From IMG/VR virus record IMGVR_UViG_3300018494_000461: a DNA stretch of 20,608 nt. The stretch is one strand, 5' to 3'. The notes below the pieces were generated by a model that was given only the letters and a program-made list of their open reading frames with translations, had not been told where the DNA came from and ran no database searches. A program made the position numbers and the translations under genes. Position 1 is the stretch's first letter. The number at the start of each line of letters is the position of its first letter. Shown here in pieces: positions 1 through 4,467 of the stretch. The DNA is from a virus.

Positions 1-785
1 AGCATACGCTTCACAAAAGTGATTTCATCGCCGTCGATTGCGAAATTCGCAGCCATAACAGAGTGTTCAGTGGAAACGGCACCCAGACCCAGCTTATGCT
101 CGGCGCACTGTGCGTCGTAATAGTCGTCCAGGTAGGGTAGCGCAGGAATGGTAGAGGTCTTATTGAAAGACAGGAGCCAAGAAGCGGAGCAACGAGTTGC
201 GTCTTCCAGGCAGCTCATACCACGGAAACCGAAGTCAGCCATTGCCATAAAGGGGTCGGCGCCGGGGGCAGTCATATCGTAATACTTCTTTGCAATCTTG
301 TGGTATTCCCAACCAACGGTCGCATATGCACACATAGGCCACACTTCAGTCTGGAGCAGGCACTCAACCCACTGAACCAGCCATGCGAAACGAGGGTGAG
401 TATTTCTCATCTCAACGATGGGAACACCCATATTGACAACAGTGCCTTCGGGCAAGGCGCGGATTTCCAGGGGCAGATAACCCAGCTCATGCAGTTCAAC
501 GATGCGATTACGAGCGACATTGTTGATACCCAGGTGAGCATCAATATAATGGTCATACTCATACATCACCCAGTCCAGAGGAGTGGCGAAGAAGCTGTCG
601 AAGCCTTCCTTCATATCAGTGAGGAAAGGATGAACGCCCCAAACGACCATCTTGGGGAAATTCTCATTCATAGCCTTTCGAGGAGTCAGGTAAGAAGCCA
701 GAAACTCCTGATTGTCAGGATACATCAGGGGGTGGCACTGCTTGTAAGAGTCGCTGTACAGCATAATCATTCTACGAAAATCCAT
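1..785 (-). CDS. nadV: Nicotinamide phosphoribosyltransferase family protein (NadV/NAMPT-like, or a Namat-type NAD+ reconstitution enzyme). This is the N-terminal ~261 aa; the gene continues past the window start.
   Basis: ATG at 783-785 (minus strand) follows AAAGGAAATTGATAAT. The frame stays open to position 1 (checked codon by codon at both ends). The translation begins MDFRRMIMLYSDSYKQCHPLMYPDN and contains HELGYLPLEIRALPEG, DFGFRGMSCLED, TSTIPAL and EHSVMAANF. These match NAMPT hallmarks (TDSYK, HELGYLP..IPEG, DFxxRGMSS, TDTIPAL, EHSVM) as I recall them from bacterial and phage NadV. Confidence 0.85.
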   Translation of the reverse strand, partial: MDFRRMIMLYSDSYKQCHPLMYPDNQEFLASYLTPRKAMNENFPKMVVWGVHPFLTDMKEGFDSFFATPLDWVMYEYDHYIDAHLGINNVARNRIVELHELGYLPLEIRALPEGTVVNMGVPIVEMRNTHPRFAWLVQWVECLLQTEVWPMCAYATVGWEYHKIAKKYYDMTAPGADPFMAMADFGFRGMSCLEDATRCSASWLLSFNKTSTIPALPYLDDYYDAQCAEHKLGLGAVSTEHSVMAANFAIDGDEITFVKRM

Positions 786-789
786 ATTA

Positions 790-1038
790 TCAATTTCCTT
801 TCTTTTTTCTCGCAATGCGGATTCGTTTACTTTCCATCTTGTTAGGAATATGCTCACGGGTCGCCAGTTCAGCTTTTACACGAGCCTGGTAGGCTCTCTT
901 GGCGGAATAATCTGCATCTTCCCAGTCATAATCGCCCCAGCGATATGTATGTCGCAGATGTGCCAGAAGCTGGCGAGTTTTCAGATTTTTCATCTGCTCT
1001 TCGGAGAGGATTCCGCAGTCTCTTTCAAAGTTACTCAT
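790..1038 (-). CDS. Hypothetical protein, 82 aa, basic C-terminus (RIRIARKKKGN)
   Basis: First ORF after promoter copy 1. ATG at 1038 is preceded by AAAGGAAGTGATTAA. The stop overlaps the RBS of the NAMPT gene. Confidence 0.55.
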   Translation of the reverse strand: MSNFERDCGILSEEQMKNLKTRQLLAHLRHTYRWGDYDWEDADYSAKRAYQARVKAELATREHIPNKMESKRIRIARKKKGN

Positions 1039-1066
1039 TTAATCACTTCCTTTACTTTCTATATAT

Positions 1067-1095
1067 ATTATATCATATTTTTTTATAAAAATCAA
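1067..1095 (-). promoter_or_regulatory. Sigma-70 type promoter, cassette copy 1: -35 TTGATT (1090-1095), 17-nt spacer, extended -10 TGaTATAAT (1067-1075)
   Basis: The minus strand reads TTGATT-TTTATAAAAAAATATGA-TATAAT. The same block occurs eight times in the window. Confidence 0.8.
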
Positions 1096-1120
1096 AAAAG
1101 CCCCTTGAGTCTCAAGGGGC
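1096..1120 (-). terminator. Intrinsic terminator: perfect 10-bp stem GCCCCTTGAG/CTCAAGGGGC with a 1-nt loop, followed on the minus strand by a U-tract that merges into the -35
   Basis: Hairpin at 1100-1120. The minus strand then continues TTTTTTGATT. It lies directly downstream of the lipoprotein gene stop (1127). Confidence 0.8.
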
Positions 1121-1126
1121 TTTTAC

Positions 1127-2298: not shown

Positions 2299-2301
2299 AT
2301 C

Positions 2302-2820
2302 TTACTCTCCCATTTGTGCCTTGACGCAAGCATCGCCTGCAGCCATAGCTTCTTTCAGTGCCTCTTGGGCAACCTTCATATCGCAGCCCTCTTTCTTCAA
2401 GAAAGGCATCACATTCTTCATAATGACACCCTTATTACCAGAGCAGATAGAAACTGCGTTACAAACTCCCCAGTAGTTAATCATCTTGACAATTTCATCC
2501 TTGTCGTCGATAACCTTAGGAGCATACTCCAAAGCGATAGAGAGCTTCATCAGATATTCAGCCTTACGAGCCTTCAATTCTGCATCTCTCTTGGGGTCTG
2601 TTGCCCCATCGGGACAGGTATCGACCATCTCTTGGACAGTCTTCTTATACTTCAACATCACTTCATCGACAAAAGCATCTGTGATTTCTACTCTCTTTTT
2701 ACCAGAGGTAGCAGCTTTGTCGATTGTGGCGACCATATCAGCCAGAGTCAAACGTCTCAGCTTATCGCCGTTTTTCAAGGCAGTTGTCATATCTGCCTTA
2801 ATAGACTCATACTTATTCAT
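2302..2820 (-). CDS. YqeY/GatB-domain protein, 172 aa
   Basis: The N-terminus MNKYESIKADMTTALKNGDKLRRLTLADMVATIDKA resembles the YqeY family start (M..L...IKEDMK.AMKAKDK.RL.TLR.L). RBS AAGGAG. Confidence 0.65.
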   Translation of the reverse strand: MNKYESIKADMTTALKNGDKLRRLTLADMVATIDKAATSGKKRVEITDAFVDEVMLKYKKTVQEMVDTCPDGATDPKRDAELKARKAEYLMKLSIALEYAPKVIDDKDEIVKMINYWGVCNAVSICSGNKGVIMKNVMPFLKKEGCDMKVAQEALKEAMAAGDACVKAQMGE

Positions 2821-2838
2821 TGGAGTCTACTCCTTTCT

Positions 2839-3666
2839 TTAATGATATACAGTAATCCATTCCTTCCAGTAAGGGTCATAACCTTCGTTGAATAACTCTT
2901 CGGGGAAAATGGACTTAGTGGTATAGACATGGTCAACAAGACCATCAGTGCTGGCCATTTCACCCAAAATAATAGTCTTTTCGCAATGGGTGACATACAG
3001 ACTTACGCTCTTGGCGCCAGCAGCCTTAAGAGCTTTAGCAGAATGGTAGAAAGTACCACCACGAGAACAGATATCGTCAACGATAAGAACATTCTTATCC
3101 TTAACTGCTTCGGCGTTGATAATATCCAGGCCCTGAATCTGACCGGTCTTCCAATCTCGCTTTTTCATTCCAAAAGCGTAAGGAATATCAAACCCACCAG
3201 AATAACGCTTCATAGCACCTTCATCGGGGAAGAAGAGTACATCAGCCTGAGCCTCAAAAATTGCATCCAGAACATAATTAGTAATGGGCATTTCTTCTAC
3301 ATTGTTCAGAAGGGCCAGGCTTACGTTGCTATGTGCGTCACGCACATGAACAACCTTGAAATTCAGAGAGTTGATAACTTCGCAGAAATACTTGAGAGTG
3401 AAAACATCTTCATCAGACTTCACTCGGTCCATGCGGGCATGGGGGATGTAAGGCATTTCCAGAACAACATCGCTGTAAGAATAGACGCGGTCCAGATGGC
3501 GCTTTACGCAAATCAAAGAGAAAAGCTCTGCATCATTTTCATAATACCACTCGACCAGAATATTACCGCGAGTGTCAAATTCATCCCCATTGGGGTCAAA
3601 CTTCATCAACAGAGTGCCATCGGGGAACTGACCCTGCTTAATTTCGACATTACCTACTTTAATCAT
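2839..3666 (-). CDS. Ribose-phosphate pyrophosphokinase family protein (Prs-like, possibly an ADP-ribose pyrophosphokinase of the Adps type), 275 aa
   Basis: PRPP-binding loop VLIVDDICSRGGT. Further matches: EMPYIPHARMDRVK vs Prs PYFGYARQDRK, and FFPDEGAMKR vs SPDAGGAKR. RBS GGAGGAAAA. It is about 40 aa shorter than canonical Prs. Confidence 0.85.
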   Translation of the reverse strand: MIKVGNVEIKQGQFPDGTLLMKFDPNGDEFDTRGNILVEWYYENDAELFSLICVKRHLDRVYSYSDVVLEMPYIPHARMDRVKSDEDVFTLKYFCEVINSLNFKVVHVRDAHSNVSLALLNNVEEMPITNYVLDAIFEAQADVLFFPDEGAMKRYSGGFDIPYAFGMKKRDWKTGQIQGLDIINAEAVKDKNVLIVDDICSRGGTFYHSAKALKAAGAKSVSLYVTHCEKTIILGEMASTDGLVDHVYTTKSIFPEELFNEGYDPYWKEWITVYH

Positions 3667-3876
3667 ACATTTTCCTCCATGTTTCTCCCATTCCGAGTTC
3701 TAAATCGGCACTTCCATTCCAACCGAATACTCGGAAAGCTCGTAATTTGATATATGCTTTATATCTTTTGAAATTGCCCTCGCAGTATAGAAAAGCTGAA
3801 GGACAATATGGCAAATCTTCTTCTTTCAATTCTGAAAGCTGTTCACGCGACATTAAGCAGCTTTCTCGCAAAGAGT

Positions 3877-4467
3877 TTAGATGATGTTGACCTGGCACAG
3901 CTTCATCGCCTCCAGAGCAGTCTTGTGGCTCTCGGGGGTAACACAGGCGCAGCAATCAGCAATCACATTCACAGGAACCTCGGGCAGCGTAGCCTTAGCC
4001 AGAATGGCATTGGACATAACACAGATTCCGGTACACAGACCCATCAGAGTAACCTCTTCAACACCCAGACGCTCATTGATATCGAACAAAATGTTCTGCA
4101 GTTCGACAGAGCCAAAAGTAGGCTTTTCAACCTTGATAGGGTTAATGTCGGTCATGGGGTAGACCTCATAAGCGTCGGCATAGGTGTCGATAACATTGAT
4201 GTAAGCCTTGAACACTTCATCAACAATGGAATGACCGGCAGTGCCCTTGATGCAATGACGAACCGGCAGATTTTTACCCTCCAGGGTATCCATGTAATTT
4301 TCGGGATGAGTATCCTTGGTGAAGATAACCACAGTATCGGGAGCTGCCATCTGCTCAATGGTCTCTGCGACCAGCGGAACGATAGCCTGCGCCTCCTTGG
4401 TGCCCAGGGAACCATCAACGAAATCCTTCTGCATATCTACGACAATAAGAACTTTCATATAATTCAT
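3877..4467 (-). CDS. pncA: Nicotinamidase / isochorismatase-family hydrolase, 196 aa
   Basis: LIVVDMQKDF, the KDTHP lysine region and the catalytic cysteine in LMGLCTGICV. First gene after promoter copy 2. RBS AAAGGAAAGG. Confidence 0.85.
   Translation of the reverse strand: MNYMKVLIVVDMQKDFVDGSLGTKEAQAIVPLVAETIEQMAAPDTVVIFTKDTHPENYMDTLEGKNLPVRHCIKGTAGHSIVDEVFKAYINVIDTYADAYEVYPMTDINPIKVEKPTFGSVELQNILFDINERLGVEEVTLMGLCTGICVMSNAILAKATLPEVPVNVIADCCACVTPESHKTALEAMKLCQVNII

What the first reader, a model, noticed from the sequence alone, without database searches (positions are those of the whole stretch)
1..4467. Phage NAD+ module joining an NAMPT-family enzyme, a Prs-family pyrophosphokinase, a nicotinamidase and a sirtuin
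Two adjacent transcription units hold the module. The first encodes an NAMPT-family enzyme (1-785). The second (promoter copy 2) encodes PncA nicotinamidase, a Prs-like pyrophosphokinase, a YqeY-domain protein, a Sir2 deacylase and a lipoprotein. An NAMPT paired with a Prs-like enzyme is the gene pair that in phages either performs nicotinamide salvage (Prs plus NadV) or forms the NAD+ reconstitution pathway 1 (Adps plus Namat). The latter rebuilds NAD+ from ADP-ribose and nicotinamide after NAD+-depleting defences such as Thoeris, DSR or SIR2-HerA. The Prs-like protein here is about 40 aa shorter than canonical Prs, so an Adps-type role is plausible. No NMNAT is visible, but the operon continues past the window edge. 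The combination is odd in two ways. The nicotinamidase would compete with NAMPT for nicotinamide. The sirtuin consumes NAD+ and is inhibited by nicotinamide. This suggests the module manages both NAD+ supply and nicotinamide level around a phage-encoded NAD+-dependent enzyme.
Basis: partly seen in the sequence, partly recalled or inferred. Interest (0 to 1): 0.8.

Follow-up and report, generated by a model that had tools for sequence, protein, structure and literature searches.

The report
Phage NAD+ rebuilding pathway using nicotinate
A gut phage carries the known two-enzyme kit that rebuilds NAD+ after bacterial defences destroy it, but in a widespread, undescribed version whose partner genes and altered active site suggest it works through nicotinic acid instead of nicotinamide.

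Summary
The genes are real and lie where stated, all on the minus strand, in two terminator-promoter-bounded units. A contig identical to the window shows the second unit continues with a Poa1p-like macro domain, NadE, NADAR, a kinase and an NMNAT-like gene.

The Prs-like protein groups with phage Adps, not Prs. The NAMPT-like protein falls on the Namat side of the Namat/Nampt split. So the pair is NARP1-type.

The NAMPT-like enzyme belongs to a large clade with two changes in the nicotinamide pocket:
- The Asp that binds the amide (D215 in SpβL1 Namat, D219 in human NAMPT) is Ser or Ala.
- Ala242 is Ser.

Human nicotinate phosphoribosyltransferase has Ser at the first position.

About 95% of these loci carry PncA and NadE in the same operon (111 and 108 of 117). 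None of 143 Asp/Glu-type loci does. One natural protein fuses the variant enzyme to NadE.

Best reading (about 0.5): a deamidated NARP1.
- PncA: Nam to nicotinate.
- Adps: ADPR to ADPR-PP.
- Variant Namat: nicotinate plus ADPR-PP to NaAD.
- NadE: NaAD to NAD+.

The sirtuin, YqeY and lipoprotein are lineage-specific inserts, not the core. No biochemistry was done. I found no description of this variant in the searchable literature.

The parts
4493..4547 (-). Terminator hairpin (4547-4524) followed by a sigma-70-like promoter (TTGATT, 17 nt, TG-TATAAT; 4521-4493). It heads the first unit (PncA to lipoprotein).
   Evidence: one of 8 copies of a conserved 57-90 nt cassette in the window.
3877..4467 (-). 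PncA-type nicotinamidase, 196 aa. Predicted step: nicotinamide to nicotinate.
   Evidence: Pfam Isochorismatase E 3.6e-24. Best PDB hits are nicotinamidases/pyrazinamidases 1ILW and 3PL1, with the catalytic Asp, the Asp-x-His...His metal site and the Cys aligned. A homologue is present in 78/80 related loci, in the same operon.
3659..3898 (-). Small ORF (79 aa from its ATG) bridging PncA and the Prs-like gene. Function unknown and coding status uncertain.
   Evidence: Called as a gene on contigs L001 and L004 but not on L002, L003, L005 or L006. No family match was sought.
2839..3666 (-). Adps-like pyrophosphokinase, 275 aa. Predicted step: ADP-ribose + ATP to ADPR-PP.
   Evidence: - TIGR01251 Prs scores 83.6 bits, below the cut-off of 113.
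- 34% identical to the Adps of phage FADO, whose NARP1 operon was shown by deletion to counter DSR2; 26% identical to E. coli Prs.
- Inside the phage Adps group in a 100/100 bootstrap split from Prs.
- Motifs ARMDR, D-A-H-S (DPHS in most Adps), KKR and DDICSRGGT, against ARQDR, DLHA and DDMIDTGGT in Prs.
2302..2820 (-). YqeY-domain protein, 172 aa. Lineage-specific insert, role unknown.
   Evidence: Pfam YqeY E 5.5e-6, exactly at the cut-off. A homologue is found only in L023-L025 among the 80 relatives.
1525..2298 (-). Sirtuin (CobB-type NAD+-dependent protein deacylase), 257 aa. Accessory, not part of the conserved core.
   Evidence: NF001752 scores 253.7 bits against a cut-off of 221. Best PDB hits are Sir2-Af2 (1MA3) and Sir2Tm (1YC5), with GAGIS, QNID, HG and the CxxC...CxxC zinc site aligned. 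A homologue is found in only 4/80 relatives.
1127..1528 (-). Lipoprotein-like ORF, 133 aa, with a signal peptide and an LIAC lipobox. Function unknown.
   Evidence: Translation. No Pfam, NCBIfam or PHROG hit. No homologue in the 80 relatives.
1067..1124 (-). Terminator hairpin (1124-1096, 13 pairs) followed by a promoter (TTGATT, 17 nt, TG-TATAAT; 1095-1067). It heads the second unit.
790..1038 (-). 82-aa ORF, first gene of the second unit. Function unknown.
   Evidence: No family hits. Called as a gene on all six contigs.
1..785 (-). N-terminal 261 of 491 aa of the Namat-clade transferase. It carries the altered nicotinamide pocket: Ser211 (codon 153-155) replaces the amide-binding Asp, and Ser238 (codon 72-74) replaces Ala242. 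The catalytic His241 is at codon 63-65. Predicted step: nicotinate + ADPR-PP to NaAD.
   Evidence: - The fragment scores 153 bits to Namat 9W5X and 84 bits to human NAMPT. The full length (L001:12882-14354) scores 338 against 170 bits.
- Residue mapping.
- Clade placement.

The rest of the unit lies outside the window on L001:
- macro domain, 14357-14863
- NadE, 14866-15672
- NADAR, 15685-16200
- AAA_28 kinase, 16201-16728
- NMNAT-like gene, 17130-17693
.

Best explanation
The window holds an expanded copy of a conserved four-to-five-gene operon. Its usual order is PncA, Adps, a variant Namat, often a Poa1p-like macro domain, and NadE. I read it as a deamidated form of NAD+ reconstitution pathway 1 (NARP1).

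The starting point is a bacterial NADase defence cutting NAD+ into ADP-ribose and nicotinamide. The proposed steps are then:
1. PncA deamidates nicotinamide to nicotinate.
2. The Adps-like kinase pyrophosphorylates ADP-ribose to ADPR-PP.
3. The Namat-clade enzyme joins nicotinate to ADPR-PP to give nicotinate adenine dinucleotide (NaAD). Its amide-binding Asp is Ser and its Ala242 is Ser.
4. NadE amidates NaAD to NAD+.

The macro domain and NADAR would feed free ADP-ribose into step 2. Their sources would be ADPR-1''-phosphate, O-acyl-ADPR or ADP-ribosylated targets.

In this phage, YqeY, a sirtuin, a lipoprotein and an 82-aa ORF have been inserted between Adps and Namat. These inserts split the operon into two promoter-driven units.

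Shown: gene identities, clade memberships, the pocket substitutions, their association with PncA and NadE, and a Namat-NadE fusion. Inferred: every substrate and product.
For: 1. NARP1-type pair.
- The Prs homologue lies inside the phage Adps group (100/100 split from Prs).
- The Namat homologue lies five genes downstream. Osterman et al. require it within ten genes.
- The NAMPT homologue is on the Namat side of the split (100/100; PDB scores).

2. Pocket change.
- In SpβL1 Namat the nicotinamide pocket includes D215 and A242. D215 hydrogen-bonds the nicotinamide, and D215A cuts NAD+ synthesis 8-fold (PMC12774641).
- Ours has Ser211 and Ser238 at these positions.
- Human NaPRTase has Ser214 where NAMPT has D219, and this is described as directing specificity to nicotinate (PMC4442680).
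- D219S is listed as switching substrate affinity (PMC4919578, citing Khan 2006).

3. Association with PncA and NadE.
- IMG/VR relatives of ours: 80/80 are Ser or Ala. PncA is present in 78, Adps in 78 and NadE in 75. All seven incomplete loci are cut at a contig end. The four genes lie on the same strand with a median span of 4.5 kb.
- IMG/VR relatives of FADO Namat: 80/80 are Asp or Glu, with 0 PncA, 0 NadE and 76 Adps.
- Bacterial genome contigs: the 34 Ser/Ala loci have PncA in 30 and NadE in 30. The 46 Asp loci have none.
- Of the top 150 cluster representatives at 50% identity, the residue pair is D/A in 90, A/S in 28 and S/S in 18.

4. Fusion. P0240 (865 aa) is a Ser-type Namat fused to NadE. 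It is encoded directly after PncA and near a Pribosyltran gene.

5. ADP-ribose donor.
- A sub-branch with Ala/Ser pockets keeps the exact Namat adenine-clamp motif GSYTYQYNTRD. It includes Clostridium chromosomes. Phass-1 keeps the same clamp pattern (GAYTYQYVTRD).
- Ours keeps the clamp's first aromatics (G-A-F-C-F). Nampt has GGGLLQ there.
- A macro-domain homologue accompanies 64/80 loci. This matches the published NARP1-AP arrangement.

6. No NaMN adenylyltransferase is conserved: an NMNAT-like gene occurs in 6/80 loci. This fits direct formation of the dinucleotide.
Against: - No enzyme was assayed. Substrate choice is inferred from two residues and from gene context.
- All Ser/Ala sequences form one clade (NJ bootstrap 55%). 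The association may therefore stem from a single ancestral event that was then retained, not from many independent ones.
- The published Namat clamp signature is not met in our protein. There is a 10-aa insertion in the SCH, and Met stands where Arg, Lys or Tyr is expected in the SCL. Use of ADPR-PP is thus less secure for our sub-branch than for the sub-branch with the canonical clamp.
- This phage also has an NMNAT-like gene and an AAA_28 kinase, so mononucleotide routes are possible here.
- The second-best solved relative of NadE is 3FIU. I recall this as the Francisella NMN synthetase, which amidates NaMN, not NaAD.
- Only three Prs outgroups were available, two of them partial. The trees are neighbour-joining, not maximum likelihood.
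- The sequence past the window edge comes from another assembly, though it is 100% identical over 13.7 kb.
Confidence: 0.5

Rival explanations
1. Phage-run Preiss-Handler salvage through mononucleotides. In this reading the Prs-like protein makes PRPP. The Ser-type NAMPT-family enzyme acts as a nicotinate phosphoribosyltransferase (nicotinate + PRPP to NaMN). An adenylyltransferase then makes NaAD, either the phage NMNAT-like protein or host NadD. NadE finishes the pathway. A Francisella-style variant is also possible: NadE amidates NaMN to NMN, and the NadM-like NMNAT makes NAD+.
For: - The Ser/Ala pocket and the PncA and NadE context fit nicotinate use equally well.
- This phage has an NMNAT-like gene of archaeal/NadM type (TIGR01527, E 1.5e-13).
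- NadE's second-best PDB hit is 3FIU.
- Namat can still use PRPP in vitro.
- Gut jumbo phages are reported to carry Preiss-Handler clusters (PMC11662467).
- Our SCH clamp is disrupted by a 10-aa insertion.
Against: - The Prs-like protein groups with the phage Adps clade (which includes FADO's NARP1 Adps), not with Prs (100/100). It scores below the Prs family cut-off.
- SpβL1 Adps gave no product from the PRPP-synthetase substrates (the preprint's text names PRPP plus ATP, its figure legend ribose-5-phosphate plus ATP) but pyrophosphorylated ADP-ribose.
- An NMNAT-like gene is present in only 6/80 related loci.
- A sister branch with the same pocket keeps the intact adenine clamp.
- Enzymes that release ADP-ribose (macro domain in 64/80, NADAR in 25/80) travel with the operon.
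- The natural fusion joins the transferase directly to NadE and skips the adenylyltransferase step.
Confidence: 0.22
2. Ordinary NARP1 (nicotinamide + ADPR-PP to NAD+), with PncA and NadE as an independent add-on. The add-on would boost the host's own PncB/NadD route. The Asp-to-Ser change would be neutral or would only broaden specificity.
For: - The Adps and Namat clade memberships.
- The catalytic His, R306, D308, GD and TRD equivalents are intact.
- NARP1 operons are known to pick up extra genes such as the macro domain and RyDEP.
Against: - Both pocket residues change together in 117 loci, and they never occur without PncA and NadE context when the flanks are complete. None of 143 Asp/Glu loci carries PncA or NadE.
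- D215A in SpβL1 Namat lowers activity 8-fold.
- A nicotinamidase in the same operon would remove the enzyme's own substrate.
- The Namat-NadE fusion implies that a deamidated product is handed to NadE.
Confidence: 0.15
3. The module is built around the phage sirtuin. PncA would remove inhibitory nicotinamide. NAMPT plus Prs would resupply NAD+ for the sirtuin reaction.
For: - Sir2 is a bona fide deacylase-type sirtuin in the same transcription unit as PncA and Adps.
- Nicotinamide inhibits sirtuins and Pnc1 relieves this in yeast (general knowledge).
- A macro domain could turn O-acyl-ADPR into ADP-ribose for Adps.
- Sir2 homologues also occur near a few other loci: L040 and L059 and L106 and L116.
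Against: - Sir2 is absent from 76 of 80 related loci, which nonetheless keep PncA, Adps, Namat and NadE.
- The model does not explain the pocket substitutions or the strict NadE linkage.
Confidence: 0.05

Closest known systems
NARP1 (Adps + Namat; Osterman et al. 2024, phages Bas63, SpβL1, FADO)
   Same: - A Prs-derived kinase of the phage Adps clade.
- A NAMPT-derived transferase of the Namat clade, five genes away.
- The same catalytic residues.
- Phage-borne.
   Different: - The amide-binding Asp is Ser and Ala242 is Ser.
- There is a 10-aa insertion in the adenine-clamp helix region (SCH), and Met at the clamp-loop (SCL) position.
- The operon always carries PncA and NadE, which no canonical NARP1 locus examined has (0/143).
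- The predicted base is nicotinate and the predicted product is NaAD, not NAD+.
NARP1-AP (Adps + macro-domain phosphatase Adpp + Namat; Osterman et al. 2026 preprint)
   Same: A Poa1p-like macro-domain gene directly follows the Namat-like gene (L001:14357-14863). Its PDB hits include ADP-ribose 1''-phosphate phosphatase 6LFU, and it matches PHROG 335 'phosphatase'. A homologue is present in 64/80 relatives.
   Different: - The gene order differs: macro follows Namat instead of lying between Adps and Namat.
- PncA and NadE are additionally present.
- Phosphatase activity was not tested, and no direct comparison with phage Gary Adpp was possible.
Preiss-Handler pathway (PncA, PncB, NadD, NadE)
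   Same: Starts with nicotinamidase, ends with NAD synthetase and passes through NaAD.
   Different: - There is no PncB-family enzyme (the NAPRTase models score far below their cut-offs) and no NadD.
- The middle of the pathway is replaced by an Adps/Namat-type pair that would go from ADP-ribose straight to the dinucleotide.
NARP2 (Nampt + Nmnat, phage KVP40) and NARP3 (PnuC + NadR-like)
   Same: This phage also has an NMNAT-like gene and an AAA_28 kinase downstream, so a mononucleotide or riboside route may coexist.
   Different: - The transferase is not in the Nampt clade (100/100 split).
- The NMNAT-like gene is weak and not conserved among relatives.
- No PnuC was seen.
NAD-jumbo phages (Li et al. 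2024, Microbiome)
   Same: Gut phages with clustered NAD+ synthesis genes plus NAD+-consuming enzymes, described from KEGG annotation.
   Different: That survey assigns genes to the standard salvage or Preiss-Handler steps. It does not recognise an Adps/Namat pair, the pocket substitutions or the PncA-NadE linkage.

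Membership tests
NARP1 | The Prs homologue belongs to the phage Adps clade, separate from cellular Prs. 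| tested here: met
   - NJ tree with 100/100 bootstraps for Prs (E. coli plus two archaeal) against phage Adps-like, with ours inside the latter.
- TIGR01251 scores 83.6 bits, below the cut-off of 113.
- Ours scores 55 bits to the best solved Prs. E. coli Prs scores 123-147 bits to archaeal Prs.
- Caveat: only three outgroups.
NARP1 | A Namat homologue within ten genes of Adps. | tested here: met
   It lies five genes downstream on the same strand.
NARP1 | The NAMPT homologue is in the Namat clade, not the Nampt clade. | tested here: met
   338 bits to Namat 9W5X against 170 bits to human NAMPT. The Nampt versus Namat-plus-variant split is 100/100.
NARP1 | Namat SCH signature GSX(phi)X(phi)X(phi)TRD with adenine-stacking aromatics at positions 3 and 7. 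| tested here: not met
   Ours reads GAFCFH + ALFSPDNKFT + VLTRD. The aromatic at position 3 is kept, but a 10-aa insertion precedes TRD. Sister branches (Clostridium loci, and Phass-1 with Ala at motif position 2) do meet the pattern.
NARP1 | SCL third residue is Arg, Lys or Tyr (adenine stacking). | tested here: not met
   The alignment puts Met39 at SpβL1 R40 (TPRKAM). The loop length is Namat-like, not the short Nampt RGG.
NARP1 | A nicotinamide pocket with an Asp that hydrogen-bonds the nicotinamide (D215), plus A242. | tested here: not met
   Ser211 and Ser238 stand at these positions. The same holds in all 80 IMG/VR relatives.
NARP1 | Catalytic core: phospho-His, R306, D308, G360/D361, R399/D400, D13/Y15, F189/R192. 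| tested here: met
   All are aligned and conserved in the full-length protein from L001. The part inside the window covers D13/Y15, F189/R192 and the His.
NARP1 | Activities: ADPR + ATP to ADPR-PP, and ADPR-PP + nicotinamide to NAD+. | not testable with these tools
   Needs purified proteins and LC-MS.
NARP1-AP | A Poa1p-like macro-domain ADPR-1''-phosphate phosphatase in the NARP1 operon. | tested here: inconclusive
   A 168-aa macro-domain gene abuts the Namat stop on L001. It matches PHROG 335 'phosphatase' at E 4.3e-32. Its PDB hits are 6LFU (ADP-ribose 1''-phosphate phosphatase), 5M31 and BT1257. Activity and orthology to phage Gary Adpp were not tested.
NARP2 | A Nampt-clade enzyme plus an Nmnat in the same phage. 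| tested here: not met
   The transferase is outside the Nampt clade. An NMNAT-like gene exists (E 1.5e-13, 50.6 bits against a cut-off of 181) but occurs in only 6/80 relatives.
Housekeeping ribose-phosphate pyrophosphokinase (Prs) | Reaches the Prs family score and keeps the ribose-5-phosphate loop DxTGGT. | tested here: not met
   It scores below every NCBIfam Prs cut-off. The loop reads SRGGT, with the Thr after the Asp/Ser replaced, as in FADO Adps (SYGGT).
Preiss-Handler pathway | PncA, PncB (NAPRTase), NadD and NadE are all present. | tested here: not met
   PncA is present. NadE is present (TIGR00552, 169.6 bits against a cut-off of 63.65). No PncB is present: the NAPRTase models score 18.7-23.4 bits against cut-offs of 297-503. 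No NadD is present, only an archaeal-type NMNAT-like protein.
Nicotinamidase (PncA) | Asp/Lys/Cys triad and an Asp-His-His metal site in the isochorismatase fold. | tested here: met
   In the alignment to P. horikoshii PncA (1ILW), D10, D52/H54/H71 and C133 are matched. The Lys lies in a gapped stretch and is not confirmed. The NCBIfam PRK11609 cut-off is not reached (40.9 bits against 174).
Sirtuin protein deacylase | Sir2 fold with a catalytic His and a Cys4 zinc site; reaches a curated family score. | tested here: met
   NF001752 scores 253.7 bits against a cut-off of 221. Aligned to 1MA3 with GAGIS, QNID, HG and the two CxxC pairs.

The most novel reading that the evidence does not exclude
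The Ser/Ala-pocket Namat relatives are nicotinate ADP-ribose transferases that make NaAD directly from ADPR-PP. This reaction has not been described before. Together with PncA, Adps and NadE they form a self-contained 'deamidated NARP1'. It is widespread in phages of gut Clostridia and also present in Clostridium chromosomes. It would let these phages rebuild NAD+ in hosts where nicotinamide is rapidly deamidated, or through an intermediate that defence NADases do not cleave.
Probability: 0.5. Interest if true: 0.82.

Novelty: new variant of a known kind. Interest (0 to 1): 0.72.

Why it matters
NAD+ depletion is a major bacterial anti-phage strategy, and NARP1 is the main known metabolic counter-measure.

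If the prediction holds, it would do four things:
- Add a new enzymatic reaction (nicotinate + ADPR-PP to NaAD) and a four-enzyme pathway to NAD+ biochemistry.
- Explain why a nicotinamidase and an NAD synthetase sit in hundreds of phage 'NAMPT/Prs' operons.
- Show that two pocket residues can retune a NAMPT-fold enzyme from the amide to the acid.
- Give a simple sequence rule for annotating phage and bacterial genomes. The rule is Ser or Ala at the D215 position, Ser at the A242 position, and PncA and NadE as neighbours.

The family is large: about a third of the 150 closest cluster representatives at 50% identity carry the variant pocket. It is common in human and animal gut viromes, so it bears on phage-host dynamics in the microbiome. 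The prediction can be tested directly with four purified proteins.

Tried and rejected
- Megablast of window 1-4600 against GenBank phages found nothing. The phage has no close sequenced relative there.
- PHROG 619 looked like an Adps marker (256 bits for ours). It is not one, because E. coli Prs also scores 193 bits. I dropped it as evidence.
- The search for homologous proteins with the Prs-like protein returned only near-identical metagenomic copies (82-100% identity). It was useless for phylogeny, though it shows the phage is abundant.
- A first bootstrap run with Biopython distances timed out. I redid it with numpy.
- 'Variant clade monophyly' in the Adps tree scored 0. One poorly extracted sequence (L092) groups with DAC15, so I did not use that figure.
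- I considered that PncA might serve only the sirtuin. I rejected this on conservation (Sir2 in 4/80 relatives).
- I considered that long NAMPT-family proteins might be Adps fusions. Most are homing-endonuclease or intein insertions, and one is a NadE fusion.
- Structure prediction of the full-length transferase was not attempted. The C-terminal half lies outside the window, so the tool would refuse it, and no ligand can be modelled.
- Five literature searches found no paper linking NARP1, Namat or ADPR-PP with nicotinamidase, NadE, nicotinate or NaAD (checks). The library is incomplete, so this is not proof of novelty.

Full report
**1. What is in the window**

Every gene in 1-7076 is on the minus strand. 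In transcription order they are:
- a major-vault-protein-like ORF (4560-7076)
- PncA (3877-4467)
- a Prs-like protein (2839-3666)
- YqeY (2302-2820)
- Sir2 (1525-2298)
- a lipoprotein-like ORF (1127-1528)
- an 82-aa ORF (790-1038)
- the first 261 residues of a NAMPT-family protein (785 down to 1)

A conserved cassette occurs eight times in the window. It is a GC-rich hairpin followed by TTGATT, 17 nt and TG-TATAAT. Minus-strand copies precede the MVP gene (promoter 7139-7111), PncA (4521-4493) and the 82-aa ORF (1095-1067).

**2. What lies past the edge**

The Prs-like protein is encoded, residue for residue, on at least 24 metagenomic contigs. Contig L001 is 71.9 kb, and the 20.8-kb stretch of it fetched here is 100% identical to window 1-13666. 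It extends 7.1 kb further and gives:
- the full 491-aa NAMPT-family protein
- a 168-aa macro-domain protein
- NadE (TIGR00552, 169.6 bits against a cut-off of 63.65)
- NADAR
- an AAA_28 kinase
- a 187-aa protein weakly similar to archaeal/NadM NMN adenylyltransferases (E 1.5e-13, below the cut-offs)
- two metallophosphoesterases
- a PNK-like kinase

The macro protein matches PHROG 335 'phosphatase'. It also matches solved Poa1p-type ADP-ribose 1''-phosphate phosphatases.

**3. Prs or Adps?**

- The protein misses the Prs family threshold (83.6 bits against 113).
- Its best solved relative is an archaeal Prs at only 55 bits. E. coli Prs scores 123-147 bits to archaeal Prs.
- It is 34% identical to the Adps of phage FADO. 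FADO's NARP1 operon was validated by deletion. It is 26% identical to E. coli Prs.
- In a neighbour-joining tree, Prs (E. coli plus two archaeal) separates from all phage Adps-like proteins in 100 of 100 bootstraps. Ours lies inside the phage group.
- It shares the group's motifs (ARMDR, the PHS-type motif, KKR). Its ribose-5-phosphate loop reads SRGGT, against DTGGT or STGGT in Prs and SYGGT in FADO.

PHROG 619 does not discriminate, because E. coli Prs also scores 193 bits.

**4. Nampt or Namat?**

- The full-length protein scores 338 bits to SpβL1 Namat (9W5X/9W5W; identity of these entries confirmed). It scores 170 bits to human NAMPT and 146 bits to Xanthomonas Nampt.
- Against GenBank phages there is a step in scores. 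NARP1-context proteins mostly score above 215 bits (30-47% identity). T4-like and other Nampt proteins score 120-190 bits.
- Loci fetched for ten NARP1-type phages and six Nampt-type phages confirm the contexts. Adps is adjacent in the former. A NadM/Nudix NMNAT is adjacent in CcrSC and MD18.
- The Nampt versus Namat split has 100/100 support, and ours is on the Namat side.

By the published operational definition the pair is NARP1. That definition is an Adps-clade gene with a Namat homologue within ten genes.

**5. The unexpected part**

The Namat crystal-structure paper lists the nicotinamide pocket as F189, R192, D215, A242, R306, D13' and Y15'. D215 hydrogen-bonds the nicotinamide, and D215A costs 8-fold in activity. 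In our protein the flanks align unambiguously (LLSF-NKT-S-TIPA against LLSF-TGT-D-TIPA). D215 is Ser211 and A242 is Ser238 (IPATEHS becomes AVSTEHS).

All 17 reference Namat and Nampt sequences keep Asp or Glu at the first position, and all but one (CcrSC Nampt, Ile) keep Ala at the second. Only two other fetched phages deviate: MT835544 and Phass-1, both with Ala at the first position and Ser at the second. They are exactly the two that also encode a nicotinamidase next to the pair.

The literature gives the residue a meaning. [quoted passage not shown] D219S is listed as switching substrate affinity (PMC4919578, citing Khan 2006).

**6. Testing the association at scale**

| Set | Loci | Residue at D215 position | PncA | Adps | NadE |
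|---|---|---|---|---|---|
| IMG/VR, closest to ours (47-82% id) | 80 | 80 Ser or Ala | 78 | 78 | 75 |
| IMG/VR, closest to FADO Namat | 80 | 80 Asp or Glu | 0 | 76 | 0 |
| Bacterial contigs, Ser/Ala type | 34 | Ser or Ala | 30 | 32 | 30 |
| Bacterial contigs, Asp type | 46 | Asp | 0 | 40 | 0 |

- In the first set all 80 also have Ser at the second position. A macro-domain homologue is present in 64.
- The seven incomplete loci in that set are all cut by a contig end on the relevant side.
- The four core genes lie on one strand with a median span of 4.5 kb. The usual order is PncA-Adps-Namat-(macro)-(NADAR)-NadE, with at least two rearranged orders.
- The control set has the canonical clamp motif throughout.
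- An exhaustive search of 1.84 billion cluster representatives used the window's own fragment. Among the best 150, the residue pair is D/A in 90, A/S in 28 and S/S in 18.
- Overall, PncA accompanies 111 of 117 Ser/Ala loci and 0 of 143 Asp/Glu loci. NadE accompanies 108 of 117 and 0 of 143.

Caveat: all Ser/Ala sequences form one clade nested in Namat (bootstrap 55%). This looks like one ancient switch that has been faithfully retained. It persists through divergence to about 32-40% identity, through gene-order changes, and through passage between phages and Clostridium chromosomes. It is not many independent events.

**7. A gene fusion**

One representative, P0240 (865 aa), is a Ser-type Namat fused to NadE. 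Its contig encodes PncA immediately upstream and a Pribosyltran protein nearby. Fusing the transferase to the enzyme that amidates NaAD argues that the transferase delivers a deamidated product to NadE.

**8. Which donor?**

- The adenine 'selectivity clamp' of Namat consists of the SCH motif GSXφXφXφTRD plus an SCL loop.
- A sub-branch with the altered pocket keeps the canonical SCH exactly (GSYTYQYNTRD). It includes Clostridium tunisiense, C. sartagoforme and C. intestinale. Phass-1 keeps the same pattern as GAYTYQYVTRD. In these, only the base pocket has changed.
- Our sub-branch keeps the first aromatics (G-A-F-C-F, against GGGLLQ in Nampt). It also keeps a Namat-length SCL. But it has a 9-10-aa insertion before TRD, and Met at the R40 position.
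- The signature is therefore not met as written, and use of ADPR-PP is less certain here.
- The constant presence of an Adps-clade kinase favours ADP-ribose as feedstock. So does the frequent presence of enzymes that release ADP-ribose (macro domain, NADAR). So does the lack of a conserved adenylyltransferase (6/80).

**9. Synthesis**

The best-supported model is a deamidated NARP1:
- Nam to nicotinate (PncA)
- ADPR to ADPR-PP (Adps)
- nicotinate + ADPR-PP to NaAD (variant Namat)
- NaAD to NAD+ (NadE)

The macro domain may act as in the published NARP1-AP extension. NADAR may act as an anti-DarT factor that also releases ADP-ribose.

A plausible rationale, which is inference only, concerns the hosts. 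MAG binning and isolate genomes suggest the hosts are Clostridia. Such hosts probably deamidate nicotinamide quickly, so nicotinate would be the base actually available.

I put this model at about 0.5. The main rival (0.22) is a PRPP-based nicotinate route through NaMN. It would possibly use this phage's NMNAT-like protein or a Francisella-like NMN synthetase activity of NadE. Canonical NARP1 with unrelated add-ons gets 0.15.

**10. Novelty**

The following are already published:
- NARP1 (2024)
- its structural clamp (2026)
- NARP1-AP (2026)
- RyDEP-assisted NARP1 (2026)
- NARP2 and NARP3
- a KEGG-level survey of 'NAD-jumbo phages'

None of the papers retrievable here connects NARP1 with nicotinamidase, NadE, nicotinate or NaAD. 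I therefore rate this a new variant of a known kind. The evidence is comparative only.

Noticed in passing
window 4560-7076 (minus strand); promoter cassette 7139-7111: An 838-aa protein with a major-vault-protein shoulder domain (E 2e-23), a vault repeat (E 1.4e-8) and a long Ala/Glu/Lys-rich C-terminal tail. It has its own promoter cassette and lies directly upstream of the NAD module. Homologues at 59-60% identity sit beside the module in L023-L025. An MVP-like protein in a phage is unusual.
   Followed up: partly
window 1030-1135, 4456-4561, 7085-7141, 10756-10830, 11979-12084, 14565-14670, 15972-16077, 19440-19514: Eight copies of a conserved 57-90 nt cassette: hairpin terminator, then TTGATT, 17 nt and TG-TATAAT on the minus strand. 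It looks like the phage's standard early or middle promoter unit, and it divides the window into short operons.
   Followed up: partly
L263:7115-9712 (protein P0240): A natural fusion of a Ser-type Namat-like enzyme with NAD synthetase (NadE), 865 aa. It is encoded just after a PncA gene and near a 510-aa Pribosyltran protein, on a contig seen in two samples.
   Followed up: yes
L205, L206, L209-L211, L213, L215, L217, L219, L233 (Clostridium and Desnuesiella isolate genomes and related MAG contigs): Bacterial contigs, some of them chromosomal scaffolds of 0.3 to 1.7 Mb, carry PncA, Adps, an Ala/Ser-pocket Namat with a fully canonical adenine clamp, and NadE. I did not determine whether these sit in prophages.
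   Followed up: partly
L001:16201-16728 and 17130-17693 (2-3 kb past the left window edge): An AAA_28-family kinase and an archaeal/NadM-like NMN adenylyltransferase-like protein. Together they resemble a split NadR (riboside kinase plus adenylyltransferase), so a second NAD+ route, NARP3-like but without PnuC, may coexist in this phage. Each is rare among the 80 relatives (NMNAT in 6, AAA_28 in 1).
   Followed up: partly
proteins P0141, P0245 and other NAMPT-family representatives of 778-1114 aa; two-piece tblastn matches in many phages: Namat/NAMPT genes of phages are often interrupted by HNH, AP2 or LAGLIDADG insertions (homing endonucleases or inteins).
   Followed up: no
window 7819-9237, 9846-10754, 10832-11065, 11067-11987, about 12450-13340 (minus strand): Upstream neighbours, per the precomputed Pfam hits on the identical contig, are an RNA ligase, an RNase T-like exonuclease, a T7 Gp5.9-like protein (a RecBCD inhibitor family), a sigma-70 family factor and a Thg1-like tRNA-His guanylyltransferase. 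Together with the PNK-like kinase and the phosphoesterases past the left edge, this suggests an RNA-repair set flanking the NAD module.
   Followed up: no
L008 (Phage Phass-1, genetic code 15) 8459-11561, with a NadE-like match further downstream: A TAG-recoded human-gut phage has an overlapping PncA-Adps-Namat(Ala/Ser pocket) operon and a NadE homologue (43% identity). In GenBank two of these genes are annotated only as 'ribose-phosphate pyrophosphokinase' and 'nicotinamide phosphoribosyltransferase'.
   Followed up: partly
L106, L116 (canonical NARP1 loci) and L040, L059: Sir2 homologues (34-44% identity to the window's sirtuin) recur sporadically within 10 kb of both canonical and variant NARP1 loci. 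This hints at a loose, unexplained association between phage sirtuins and NAD+ reconstitution genes.
   Followed up: no
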